Source: Eledone cirrhosa
Taxonomy: Eukaryota
NCBI GenBank assembly: GCA_964016885.1
Contig: OZ024755.1
Span: forward strand, 9,114,001 to 9,178,000
Length of the DNA: 64,000 nucleotides
Direction: 5' to 3'
The notes under the pieces were generated by a model. That model was not told where the DNA came from, ran no database searches, and saw only the letters and a list, made by a program, of their open reading frames with translations. This document shows positions 32,687 through 47,186 of this stretch, in pieces (the first letter of the stretch is position 1; the number at the start of each line of letters is the position of its first letter). Made by a program: the position numbers and the translations under genes.

Positions 32687-32894
32687 ATAGGAAAAGGTAT
32701 GACCCCGACGGCAGAGCTCAAGCCGTTTCGACGGGTATTTCTAGACCTAGATCTGGGTCTAGAAATAGCCGTCGAAACGGCTTCAGCTCTGCCATCGGGG
32801 TCATACTTTTTCCTATTACCCATTCTGCTACCCTAAATATTGAGTACTCTGGTGCGTTATGGTCCATCTGGTTCCTTACCACAATTCCTTCGTT
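32687..32894 (+). mobile_element. TA-inserted fold-back element copy A (130-bp palindrome + ~80-bp tail); Penelope-like pLTR derivative
   Basis: Inverted repeat 32687-32816 whose arm reads GAA-ACGGC-loop-GCCGT-C-GGGGT (hammerhead 3' half); shared tail; (TA)n on both sides. Confidence 0.75.
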
Positions 32895-35072
32895 ATATAT
32901 ATATATATATTTATATATATATATATATATATATATATATATATATATATATATATATATATATATATAAATATGTCTGCGTGTGTGTGTGTGTGTGTGT
33001 GTGTGTGTGTGTGTGTGTGTGTGTGTGTGTGTGTGCTTGTGTGTATATATATATATATATATATATATATACAGATATATATATTAAACAATGAAAGGAT
33101 GAAAATGAAATACAAGATGAAGTATTCCTCCATTGTGTTACGGTCTTTTCAGAGGGGCAGGAGTATCGATGTGCAGACTAATCGATGGCTGTTATGTAAC
33201 TCCATATCATCAACCAGTTGAACGCACATATACTCTGCTGTTTATTCCCATGGGACTTTTGCCCTGAAAGTTAACAGTTCGATCACAAAGATGATCGATA
33301 AAATAAGTCCCAGGGCCGATATGATCGACTAAATTAAATCGAAATGATCCAACTAATCTAGGGTTTCCCGGTCTGGGCAATATCACACACTGGGGGATGG
33401 TGATACCGTATTTTGGTTGGGCGACGATCAACTGAACAATGGTGGGCAATTGGAGATTTTGGTTAAAGATTTCTGGTATTAAGAAGGTATTTCAACATCT
33501 GCTACCAGAAAAATATATATTCAAGGGAGATATGCTAAAAACCTGTGTAAAATGACTGCTTGTGTGTGTTTAAGTTTGTGTATGTGTAAGTGTATGTATG
33601 TACAAGTTCACTGCATGTGTGTGTATCAGTGTGTACCTGTGTAAGTGTGCATTTGTTAGTGTGTGTGTGTATGTACATATATGTGTGTGAATGTTTCACC
33701 GCATATGTGTGTATATGAGTGTGTGTATGTACATGTATGTGTTTATGTTTTACTTCATCTGTATGTATGTGTGGTGTAAATGAGTGTGTGTATGTGTACA
33801 TGTATGTGTATATGTACATGTATGTGTATATGTACATGTATGTGTGTTTATGTTTCACTTCATCTGTATGTATGTGTGCGTAAATGAGTGTGTGTGTGTG
33901 CATCTACATGTATGTGTGTTTATGTTTCATCTGTGTGTATGTACATGTAAGTGTGAATATGTACATGTAAGTGTGTATGTGTGTATGAGTGTGTGTGTAT
34001 GTGTGTATGAGTGTGTGTGTGTGTATGTACGTGTATGTGTATGTGTGTATGAATGTGTGTTTATGTGTGTATGAGTGTGTGTGTGTGTATGTACGTGTAT
34101 GTGTATATGTGTATGTGTGTTTCTGTTTGACTGCGTGTGATCTGGTTGGTAGAGAATGTAGGGAGTCGTTAGTCGTTTACATTCTATGGTCTGTGCCAAT
34201 GTACGGAATGACCGTGATATGCTCTCCTCTTTTGCACAGAACGCATCTTATATGAACTTAACTCTTCAAATATACTGGCTTCATCTCTTCAGCTCCTCTA
34301 ATTAATGTTACATTTGTCTTAACTAGTTTCCCCCTTTCATTTTCTCTCACTGACTCACTCACATACCCTCTCTTTCAAATACACACACGCTCTCTCTCTC
34401 TCTCTCTCTCTCTCTCTCTCTCTCTCTCTCTCTCTCTCTCTCTCTCTCTCTCTCGTACACAGAAACACACACACTCACTCTCTCTCTCTCTGTCTCTCTC
34501 TCCTGTTTCTGTACATGTGTGTGTGTATGTGTATAAATGTATGTGTAATCATACATATAATATCCATATGTAAACATTAAAACAAATGATGAAACAATTA
34601 TGAAATATATTAATATTATCCTTATCTTAATATAGACTTTAAATATATGACCTCTATTTATCTACCTATCTATCTATTTATCTGTCTATCTACACACACA
34701 CACACACACTTATATATATATATATATATATATATATATATATAGAGAGAGAGAGAGAGAGAGAGAGAGAGAGAGAGAGAGAGAGAGAGAGAGAGAGAGA
34801 GAGAGAGAGAGAGATATAATTCAATGATATTAAATATATGGAAACTATATTTATAAAACCATATTTATTCTATTATATATTCTTATATATATATATATAA
34901 TATTCTTATATATATATATATAAGCAGAAGGGATATTCAATTTGTTGGTAATTCAACAAATATAAATGTTTATAACTGATTCAGAGCACTCGACAAGTTT
35001 TCTGGAGTATAATATTCAATGATATTAAATAAATGGAAACTATATTTATAAAATCATATGTATTCTATTATA

Positions 35073-35134
35073 TATTCTATTATATATATTTCAAGGGTAC
35101 CAAAAACTTTGGTACGCTTTCATCAGATAAAATA
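35073..35134 (-). ncRNA. Minimal type I hammerhead ribozyme (intact, AUA triplet)
   Basis: Minus strand: UAUUUUAU-CUGAUGA-AAG C GUACCAAA guu UUUGGUAC C CUU-GAA-AUAUAUAU-A-AUAGAAUA. 8-bp helix I, long helix II, palindromic helix III. Confidence 0.75.
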
Positions 35135-35262
35135 CAAAGTGTGTTTTATAAATTTTGACATAGCCAAGGAACATACCTTAACGGTTGAAGTTTTCCTTGG
35201 ATAGACTATCCAAAGAAAAGTTCAACCGTTAAGGTTTATCAAAATTTATAAAACACACTTTG

Positions 35263-45382: not shown

Positions 45383-45660
45383 TTGATACCAACCCAACCC
45401 AAATCGCCCTTAGTCCTATCATATAAAGTCGTTCATTTCAACATATCTACCATTTGATAGCAACCCGGTTAAAATCGCCCCTAGTTTTATCATATAATTC
45501 CTTCCATTTCAAAACGACTACTATTTGATCCCTACGCGGTCAAAAACGCACCTAGGTCTATCATAAACCACTTCGCATTTTTAATATTCTACCTTACGAT
45601 ACCAATACGCCCCCCCCCCCCCAATACCTCTGGTTCTATCAAAGAAGACCAGTGATTTAA
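45383..45660. repeat. Diverged ~72-bp tandem repeat (about 4 units)
   Basis: Recurring TTGATAC/GCAAC...AAATCGCCC(T/C)TAG..TATCATATAA...CATTTCAA. Confidence 0.6.
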
Positions 45661-46989
45661 AAAGGTTCCATTTCGTTAGTTACCAACGGAGAGTTGATAA
45701 CGTAAGTTCTATCTTATTCACTTTCCACAGTGCAGCTAAAATTTTCTGCGTGGATAGGTATGTAAAATTGTCCATATTGAGTTTAATGAGTAGGATTAAC
45801 GATTCTTACAATAATCAGCAAGTTGTAATTTTGATTTAAAAAAACACTTCATTTCATATTGCACCGGTCTACTCAGATAAAAATGATTTGCCCGCTGAGT
45901 GGACTGGATCAACGTGAACAACAAAAGTGTCTTGCTCAACACACATAACACTCTTCCGGGAATTGAACCAGTAAGTCACGTGCCTTCAAGAGAACGCATA
46001 TGTACTCTACACTGTGCCCTTTAACCTTCTATTTGCCTACCTTATTTTGATCTGAAAAACAAACTTCCTGGAGGAATGTATAATTTAGTACGTTGCTTTT
46101 GCCTTAAGACATACCCTTCACCATTATTCCTCCTTTATCCTACTTTATCGTATGTATACACACACACACACACACACACACACACACACACACACACACA
46201 TATATACATATATATATATATATATATATATATATATATATATATATATATATATACACATATATATATATATATATATATATATACATATATATATATA
46301 TGATATATATATATCATATATATCATATATATATATACAACAAATACACGTATATATCATACATATGTGTATGCATGTGTTTATATATATGGATGTGCGT
46401 ATATGTATGTGTGTGTGTATGTATATATGTGTGTGTGTGTGTGTGTGTGTGTGTGTGCGTGTGTGCATATATGTGTGTGTGTGCGTGTGTGTGTGTGTGT
46501 ATTTATACGGTTTATACATTTTCGTTAGGCTCTCAAGTCTTGAAGAATCCTAATTTCAGTCTGTTTCAGAAACACTCGAAAAATTCTTGTCGTAGCAACA
46601 CTACACCCACCTAGCCTCCACACAGTCCCAGTGTACACTCACCCACCCGCCTGCCCTTCACAGACCCAGTATACCCACCCTACGGTTTCTACCTTCCCAT
46701 TGCAGTCCTATCGCAGCCACTCTGAAATCCCATTTATTGCTGTATTGCTGGTTCAAAAACAAATGCGACGAGTAGTGGCGATGGGTGAGTGTGTAATACA
46801 TGTCTGTACACACACACACACTTATATATATATATATATATATATATATATATATATATATATATATATATATATATATACATACATATATATATATGAT
46901 ATATATATATATATATATATATATATATATATATATATATATATATATAAGTGTGTGTGTGTGTGTCGCATTTCTGTTTATATATATAT

Positions 46990-47186
46990 AATAAAGGAAT
47001 TGTGGTAAGGAACCAGATGGACCATAACACACAAGAGTACTCAATACTTAGGGTAGTAGAATGGGAAATAGGAAAAAGTATGACCCCGGCGGCAGAGCTC
47101 AAGCCGTTTCGACGGCTATTTCTGGAGTCCAGAAATAGCCGTCGAAACGGCTTGAGCTCTGCCGTCGGGGTCATACTTTTTCCTAT
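46990..47186 (-). mobile_element. TA-inserted fold-back element copy D
   Basis: Tail 46990-47067 plus a near-perfect palindrome 47068-47186. Confidence 0.78.

What the first reader, a model, noticed from the sequence alone, without database searches (positions are those of the whole stretch)
32687..47186. Four fold-back palindromes made of a hammerhead 3' half plus a constant ~80-bp tail
Seen: copies at 32687(+), 40959(+), 41526(-) and 46990(-), plus an orphan arm at 252, each have a 118-141 bp palindrome. The arm is ...GCCGTC-GAA-ACGGC-TTGAGCTC(T/A)-GCCGT-C-GGGGT, i.e. helix II 3' strand, GAA, helix III, a GUC site and helix I'. The CUGAUGA half is missing and is replaced by the inverted copy. 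The centre differs in every copy (CTAGACCTAGATCTGGGTCTAG, a duplicated centre, CTGGACTCAG, CTGGAGTCCAG). Subfamily substitutions, such as GGAACGAGTAGG in copy C, are present in both arms. Inference: each palindrome arose per insertion when the cDNA folded back within the ribozyme's own helix II and self-primed. This resembles the inverted pLTR plus 3' extension described for Penelope, reduced to ~200 bp.
Basis: partly seen in the sequence, partly recalled or inferred. Interest (0 to 1): 0.8.

Follow-up and report, generated by a model that had tools for sequence, protein, structure and literature searches.

The report
Penelope-type hairpin stubs in TA repeats
The four palindromes are real copies of a very abundant ~200-base repeat that is most likely the stump of a Penelope-like jumping gene laid down as two short head-to-head copies of its ribozyme-bearing end, an already described kind of insertion whose only unusual trait is how sharply the copies stop.

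Summary
Observation confirmed: four palindromes of 130, 141, 118 and 119 bp, each with a one-sided 79-85 bp tail, plus one solo arm, all in (TA)n. The arm reads as a hammerhead 3' half; no CUGANGA half was found. Best reading: short head-to-head insertions of a Penelope-like element (PLE), Hydra-like. Support: (TA)n target; one-sided tail; a tail motif shared with published Hydra 3' ends and with four other (TA)n-abutting ends in the window; and a second, unrelated 540-bp palindrome with CTGATGA in both arms. Public reads show very many copies, longer non-palindromic members and asymmetric, microhomology-rich junctions, which argues against a MITE. The inner ends cluster at one AGTC, which I infer to be an RNA 5' end. 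Fold-back versus twin priming is unresolved; no RT gene was linked. The architecture is published; interest is modest.

The parts
32687..32895 (+). Copy A: palindrome 32687-32816 (centre AGATCT, both arms ~5 bp longer at the inner end) plus tail 32817-32895, in (TA)n
40959..41184 (+). Copy B: palindrome 40959-41099 (C-type junction plus 22-24 bp tandem duplication) plus tail 41100-41184 with a 6-bp duplication
41525..41721 (-). Copy C (second subfamily): palindrome 41604-41721, junction TTCTG|AGTCCAG, tail 41525-41603
46990..47186 (-). Copy D: palindrome 47068-47186 (loop letters belong to the tail-less arm), tail 46990-47067
252..305 (-). Solo tail-less arm E, third subfamily, in (TA)n; the same variant occurs joined to the tail side in 75 contigs and 986 reads
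41057..41084 (+). Putative hammerhead 3' half in copy B's tailed arm (GAA, helix III ACGGC/GCCGT around a GAGCTC palindrome, GTC, GGGGT); same in every arm; 5' half not found
   Evidence: function inferred
41105..41137 (+). Tail hairpin motif ACTC-TAC...GTA-TT-GAGT-ACT, about 55 bp before the (TA)n end; also at 32838(+), 41582(-), 47046(-)
   Evidence: compared by eye with Hydra consensi
34923..35462 (.). Second, sequence-unrelated 540-bp head-to-head palindrome in (TA)n; CTGATGA in both arms, full type I hammerhead in the left arm (35126, minus strand); both arms carry the whole tail
54449..54643 (+). Solo (TA)n-flanked end with hammerhead core boxes (CTGATGAT..TGAAAC at 54510) and the same tail motif at 54605
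35608..35752 (+). Solo end abutting (TA)n with a complete Hydra-type hammerhead at 35689
55041..55240 (-). Solo (TA)n-flanked end with a type I hammerhead whose loop II is 39 nt long and holds a hairpin
   Evidence: z = -3.2
36660..36778 (+). Degenerate end abutting (TA)n with TGAAAC and the tail motif at 36727

Best explanation
Each copy is likely a minimal insertion of a Penelope-like retroelement of the (TA)n-targeting, Hydra-like type, made of two short copies of the element's hammerhead-bearing end joined head to head, one carrying the 80-bp tail and one lacking it. Mechanism, with status: (1) shown: (TA)n flanks, head-to-head arms, two fixed outer ends, inner ends clustered within about 5 bp of one AGTC, longer linear members, asymmetric junctions with microhomology. 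(2) inferred from published PLE biochemistry: the GIY-YIG endonuclease nicks (TA)n and RT starts internally at either of two sites, which makes the tailed and the tail-less end. (3) inferred here: cDNA mostly stops about 140 nt from the tailed start, at the A of TT-AGTC, probably because the template RNA begins there, downstream of where the CUGANGA half would lie; that is why only the 3' half is copied. (4) inferred, unresolved: the second arm comes from a second cDNA primed on the other target strand and joined by 1-5 nt of microhomology (favoured about 50:35 over fold-back of the first cDNA on itself); finished palindromes may also be re-copied. The stubs encode no protein and hold half a ribozyme, so they are by-products mobilised in trans.
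For: (TA)n at both ends of all 5 pieces; Hydra families insert in (TA)n and carry hammerheads. Inverted truncated copy with a tail at one end is the typical PLE insertion; two internal RT starts define the tail and both target strands are cut and extended in vitro. By my arithmetic on File S2/S1, 3 of 6 newly described Hydra consensi end 80-103 nt after helix I, ours about 94. Tail motif TATTGAGYACT matches Hydra-2_Amil exactly; ATAGAGCACTC in two Ajap consensi; looser in Crog and Amil-1; not clear in Obim (by eye). All 4 of 4 non-family matches of the motif in the window lie 39-63 bp before a (TA)n run on the same strand, background 4.5% of positions (range chosen after seeing the data). An unrelated family forms the same kind of palindrome with CTGATGA in both arms; my descriptor found 3 full hammerheads in the window and 0 in 50 shuffles. 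Reads: 17,531 contigs laid in X1; tail-less end abuts (TA)n in 202 contigs and 3,631 reads; linear upstream sequence agrees at 25 of 30 letters between organisms A and B; 11 of 14 shown skip joints end at 47125-47130 while the other end ranges over 47012-47092; 5 of 14 have 3 or more letters of microhomology (expected 5.8% each, p about 0.0008). A 39-nt loop II in a neighbouring hammerhead shows that the missing half can lie far upstream in this genome.
Against: No RT or GIY-YIG gene linked: no such Pfam hit in 150 frames of the window and no genome is held. No CUGANGA half found in the 48 nt upstream of GAAA. The motif similarity is short; tail-to-tail local scores are only modest (3/1000 shuffles for 54545-54644, 31-35/1000 for 36680-36778, none for the 540-bp palindrome's tail; one unrelated tile scores as high). 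The family does not match the Hydra-1_Obim end, nor the Naiad_Obim and Naiad_Ovul 3' ends as far as shown. The clustering of joints at 47126 is partly forced, because the reference stops matching the upstream template there; 59 joints and 403 loose ends were not shown; only 2 skip joints have raw-read support, and library artefacts at hairpins can mimic them. B and C share a junction, as expected if a finished palindrome is the amplifying unit.
Confidence: 0.75

Rival explanations
1. One reading: one cDNA, primed at the tail, stops near AGTC, folds back on itself and copies itself up to an internal TA where the endonuclease resolves it. Same PLE origin, different step 4; the turn is not in helix II.
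For: The B/C junction is exactly a 4-nt-loop hairpin and follows from a cDNA ending in one extra C (cap-templated or untemplated); joints with GAGT or CAGA microhomology fit self-priming; self-priming is the published inference for PLE palindromic junctions.
Against: In D the loop letters belong to the tail-less arm; E is a solo tail-less arm; the second family's palindrome has unequal arms. These need later flips or deletions.
Confidence: 0.3
2. The finished palindrome-plus-tail is itself the amplifying unit: a non-autonomous element transcribed from host introns and re-copied in trans by a PLE enzyme, with centres revised after insertion by template switching.
For: B and C share a junction across subfamilies; A's centre is closer to a C-type centre (2 differences) than to the linear template; 4 of 5 window copies have one architecture; within-subfamily arms are no closer within than between copies.
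Against: Every subfamily needs its changes in both arms; linear members are common in raw reads (919 and 886 reads run on unlike at 47126 and 47118) and little contig depth crosses the centre (0.16M at 47125 against 2-3M in the tail), though hairpins are under-read.
Confidence: 0.25
3. A TA-targeting MITE or foldback DNA transposon with long inverted repeats; the hammerhead match is chance.
For: Long inverted repeats, TA flanks, high copy number; no full ribozyme or RT found; a 5-bp stem after GAAA is a 1% event.
Against: The tail lies outside the inverted repeats on one side in 4 of 4 copies; solo arms and linear members exist; tail motif shared with hammerhead-bearing ends.
Confidence: 0.08
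4. A non-LTR retrozyme (circular-RNA retroelement) remnant.
For: Short, non-coding, type I hammerhead part, possibly mobilised by PLEs.
Against: Retrozymes are tandem head-to-tail repeats with whole ribozymes; these are single head-to-head stubs with half a ribozyme.
Confidence: 0.05

Closest known systems
Typical EN+ Penelope-like insertion with inverted pLTR and one-sided tail (Arkhipova et al. 2013, PMC3846280, abstract and passages; Craig et al. 2021, PMC8557442, Fig. 2 legend and passages)
   Same: Head-to-head inverted truncated copy, palindrome at the junction, tail at one end, microhomology junctions; self-priming already proposed.
   Different: No ORF between the repeats; whole insertion about 200 bp; tail 79-85 bp instead of 30-40; inner ends sharply clustered.
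Hydra clade of PLEs (Craig et al. 2021, section 11, supplement Files S1, S2, S7)
   Same: (TA)n target, hammerhead near the 3' end, 80-103 nt behind helix I in 3 of 6 new consensi, similar tail hairpin motif.
   Different: Helix III loop is 9 nt with a GAGCTC palindrome (Hydra 1-3 nt); CUGANGA not within 48 nt (Hydra loop II 3-10 nt); sequence differs from Hydra-1_Obim; protein not seen.
Poseidon PAc of Anolis (Frangieh et al. 2024, PMC11167929, parts 1-2 of 4)
   Same: RT starts at two internal sites 85-92 nt past the hammerhead cut site (ours: tailed end about 99 nt past GTC); AT-rich target; both strands extended.
   Different: PAc's two starts are 30-40 nt apart and its ORF begins in the ribozyme; an ATG frame placed the same way here would stop in the arm.
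Dual opposite-strand minimal hammerheads of truncated PLEs (Cervera and de la Pena 2014, PMC4209133, parts 1-2 of 4)
   Same: Two motifs 100-700 bp apart on opposite strands, most copies as stubs; palindromic helix III loop.
   Different: Here the catalytic 5' half is cut off, so a descriptor search would miss the family.

Membership tests
EN+ Penelope-like element | Linked ORF with PLE-type RT and GIY-YIG endonuclease | not testable with these tools
   No genome; no hit in the window; collections empty
EN+ Penelope-like element | Inverted 5'-truncated copy head to head with a forward copy | tested here: met
   4 of 4 copies
EN+ Penelope-like element | Tail at one end only | tested here: met
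   4 of 4; tail-less end abuts (TA)n in 202 contigs and 3,631 reads; length 79-85 bp, not the 30-40 bp usually cited
EN+ Penelope-like element | Complete type I hammerhead in the terminal repeat | tested here: inconclusive
   3' half in 9 of 9 arms; 5' half absent from 48 nt upstream, further upstream unseen
EN+ Penelope-like element | Partial tandem forming direct pLTRs | not testable with these tools
   Needs long members; none held
Hydra clade | Insertion in (TA)n | tested here: met
   Both ends of all 5 pieces; also true of Naiad and Neptune, so not diagnostic
Hydra clade | Protein motifs (RWK, DKT, CxCX5C linker, no CCHH) | not testable with these tools
   No linked protein
Hydra clade | Tail hairpin motif (my observation, not a published criterion) | tested here: inconclusive
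   Clear in 3 of 6 consensi by eye, looser in 2; no quantitative test
MITE / TIR DNA transposon | Inverted repeats at both termini of the element | tested here: not met
   79-85 bp tail outside the repeats in 4 of 4
MITE / TIR DNA transposon | Target-site duplication | tested here: inconclusive
   Cannot be read in (TA)n
Non-LTR retrozyme | Head-to-tail tandem units with a whole hammerhead | tested here: not met
   No tandem copy in the window; genome not examined

The most novel reading that the evidence does not exclude
The family is a 'strong-stop' product of a PLE: the promoter starts RNA inside the ribozyme's loop II (TATA-like ATTTAT about 30 nt upstream of an initiator-like TT-AGTC), RT starts internally in the tail and runs off the capped 5' end after about 140 nt, and the cap-templated C supplies the one base pair that joins or folds the cDNA (giving the B/C and D junctions exactly). 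The ribozyme would then form only in read-through RNA. On the order of 10^4-10^5 such junctions would be a natural library that decides between fold-back and twin priming, an open question of PLE biology.
Probability: 0.25. Interest if true: 0.6.

Novelty: new member of a known kind. Interest (0 to 1): 0.3.

Why it matters
Mostly for annotation: a very abundant repeat that looks like a MITE or a microRNA hairpin is likely retroelement debris, and ribozyme descriptors would miss it. Craig et al. name the formation of PLE inverted structures as unresolved; a family with two fixed outer ends, a sharp inner end and several subfamilies could test fold-back against twin priming from genome sequence alone. 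One copy per 13 kb in this window and 57-bp perfect arms could also matter for local instability and double-stranded RNA in host transcripts (not tested).

Tried and rejected
No whole genome held. Exact-pattern scans found nothing in viral, metagenome (25, 34) or prokaryote genome collections (26, 67), as expected for an animal repeat. Rfam listed no hammerhead among the 150 of 302 matches shown for the window and none for the complete hammerheads at 35126 and 35689, so Rfam is blind here. Type II/III hammerhead topologies and the antisense strand: no CUGANGA. The tail has no unusual fold (z -0.1 to -0.4). Splicing at TTAG| as cause of the inner end: rejected because copies keep the AG. The upstream motif is not elsewhere in the window. 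Host protein search empty; organism not identified (cephalopod-like only from recall of repeat content; weak EGF-like lead). Pfam's one hit (DUF3915, below cut-off) is noise. No paper printing the four motifs searched; searches found no description of this family; Repbase, Dfam and subscription papers were not searchable, so it may be catalogued. Helentron/HINE and Academ considered from recall and dropped (long palindrome, one-sided tail, linear members).

Full report
Setting. The window is 30-43% GC animal DNA dense in (TA)n, (CA)n and (GA)n. No genome is held and the organism was not identified.

Observation. Four copies (A 32687-32895 +, B 40959-41184 +, C 41525-41721 -, D 46990-47186 -) and a solo arm (E 252-305) are present. 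Palindromes span 130, 141, 118 and 119 bp, tails 79, 85, 79 and 80 bp. All lie in (TA)n. In the alignment of the 9 arms CGAAACGGC and GGGGTC are invariant and GTC survives in 5. Arm differences: within A 4, B 4, C 3, D 1; among A, B, D 1-5; C to the others 6-10; E 9-14. In element orientation B and C have the same junction, B with a tandem duplication over it; in D the loop letters belong to the tail-less arm; in A both arms run about 5 bp further in, with two changes shared by both.

Family beyond the window. Of 23 runs listed I laid 4 on 46980-47170 at 85% likeness: X1 and X4 (contigs, organism A), X21 (raw RAD reads, organism A), X5 (contigs, organism B). Laid: 17,531, 350, 19,948 and 40 records. 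X1 may be the source of the window and is not independent. Summed depth in X1 is 2-3 million over the tail against about 20-40 for most single joints; the tool warns that this is no copy number, but with 5 pieces in 64 kb it points to a very abundant repeat. The tail-less end abuts (TA)n (202 contigs, 3,631 reads). The E-type arm is a real subfamily (75 contigs, 986 reads). Longer linear members exist: loose ends at 47126 in all four runs; in X5 (2 contigs, agreement 0.95, median 114 letters) the 30 letters shown are ATTTATTCACCAGGCTAAAAATTCTAATTT, and the X1 consensus (154 contigs, agreement 0.47) agrees at 25 of 30. These letters hold no GACGGC and no CTGANGA, so the turn-around is not in a pre-formed helix II. 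Of 14 skip joints shown (59 joints not shown), 11 end at 47125-47130 and the other ends spread over 80 bp; 5 of 14 have 3-5 letters of microhomology (p about 0.0008), and most others 1-3 added letters. The clustering is partly forced by where the reference stops matching, and only 2 of these joints have raw-read support. The common subfamily changes among the rows shown fall outside GAAAC, helix III and GGGGT (53 rows not shown); no covariation was seen.

Why Penelope-like. Published PLE insertions have an inverted truncated copy, a tail at one end and palindromic junctions ascribed to self-priming (PMC3846280 passages; PMC8557442 passages; PMC8969392 passages). In vitro a PLE enzyme cuts and extends both strands of AT-rich DNA and starts RT at two internal sites that bound the tail, 85-92 nt past the ribozyme cut (PMC11167929 parts 1-2). 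Hydra-clade PLEs target (TA)n and carry hammerheads near the 3' end. Our tail holds ACTC-TAC..GTA-TT-GAGT-ACT; by eye Hydra-2_Amil has the same build and an exact TATTGAGCACT, two Ajap consensi have ATAGAGCACTC, Crog and Amil-1 looser forms (supplement parts 52, 53). In the window the motif ATTGAGTRC occurs 8 times: 4 in the family and 4 elsewhere, all 39-63 bp before (TA)n, background 4.5%; one of these ends (54449-54643) has both hammerhead core boxes. A descriptor finds 3 full hammerheads in the window and none in 50 shuffles. Another (55189, minus) has a 39-nt loop II, so a distant 5' half is possible for our family. Against: short motif, modest alignment scores, no linked enzyme, no match to the one published octopus Hydra end.

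Mechanism. Shown: two fixed outer ends, a clustered inner end, variable junctions, linear members. Inferred: nicking of (TA)n, RT start at either of two sites, stop at the A of TT-AGTC. That A is where one arm ends in B, C and D; it resembles an initiator with an AT-rich box 30 nt upstream (consensus recalled, not tested; Penelope of Drosophila has an internal promoter with an initiator, PMC2377424 passages). A cDNA ending in GGACT plus one C gives the B/C junction by pairing with the G five bases back and the D junction by pairing four bases back. B/C fit fold-back or twin priming; D and solo E fit twin priming without extra steps. Re-copying of finished palindromes and later template switching remain possible. 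I put PLE origin at 0.75-0.85; given that, twin priming about 0.5, fold-back about 0.35; RNA 5' end as the stop about 0.4, against a structural stall or inheritance from a master palindrome.

Known or new. The architecture and the self-priming idea are in print; opposite-strand hammerhead pairs from truncated PLEs were noted in 2014 (PMC4209133 parts 1-2). Earlier unchecked notes of this scan report similar 200-300 bp PLE palindromes in other genomes; they are not evidence but lower the surprise. This family was not found in searches; repeat databases were not searchable. It works like a PLE stub; membership of the Hydra clade is not shown. What is distinctive is the sharp inner end that removes half the ribozyme, and the abundance. 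Verdict: real, new member of a known kind, interest 0.3.

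Noticed in passing
window 34923-35462: Second 540-bp head-to-head palindrome in (TA)n with hammerhead core in both arms (GAA lost in the right arm), full tail on both sides, 1-bp spacer, and a 13-bp longer stretch in one arm that repeats centre-proximal letters.
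   Followed up: partly
window 55041-55240 (-): Type I hammerhead with a 39-nt loop II that holds its own hairpin, in a 200-bp (TA)n-flanked piece.
   Followed up: partly
window 35608-35752 (+): Complete Hydra-type hammerhead with a tail-like motif (TAGAGCACTC) about 55 bp upstream of it, which could mean a very short internally deleted unit.
   Followed up: no
window 54449-54643 (+), 36660-36778 (+), 7287-7361 (+), 9680-9760 (+), 52794-53009 (-): Further ends abutting (TA)n with the tail motif and/or degenerate hammerhead boxes: several unrelated PLE-like families in one window.
   Followed up: partly
window 32735 and 41652 region: The tail-less arm of A and the tailed arm of C share one C-to-G change although they are different subfamilies and different arms; unexplained.
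   Followed up: no
window 47068-47186 vs 46990-47067: Copy D's arms are almost unchanged (0 and 1 differences from the majority) while its tail differs at about 5 of 80 sites; unexplained.
   Followed up: no
window 2737-7092 (+): 1451-codon low-complexity open frame ending in a cysteine pattern like an EGF domain; no Pfam hit, no homologue, weak EGF-like atlas leads under 0.9. The repeats may lie in an intron of this gene.
   Followed up: partly
window 55440-55844 (+): Frame that by eye resembles the C-terminal restriction-like endonuclease of a CRE/NeSL-type LINE (recalled); no Pfam hit, atlas hits unnamed.
   Followed up: partly
window 12544-12744, 19173-19346, 42716-42901, 63703-63896, 37238-37545, 17011-17299: Another abundant ~200-bp interspersed family (87-97% identical), SINE-like, with a partial tandem at 37238-37545.
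   Followed up: no
window 39724-40363 and 31200-32043: Tandem arrays (20-bp unit; longer degenerate unit).
   Followed up: no
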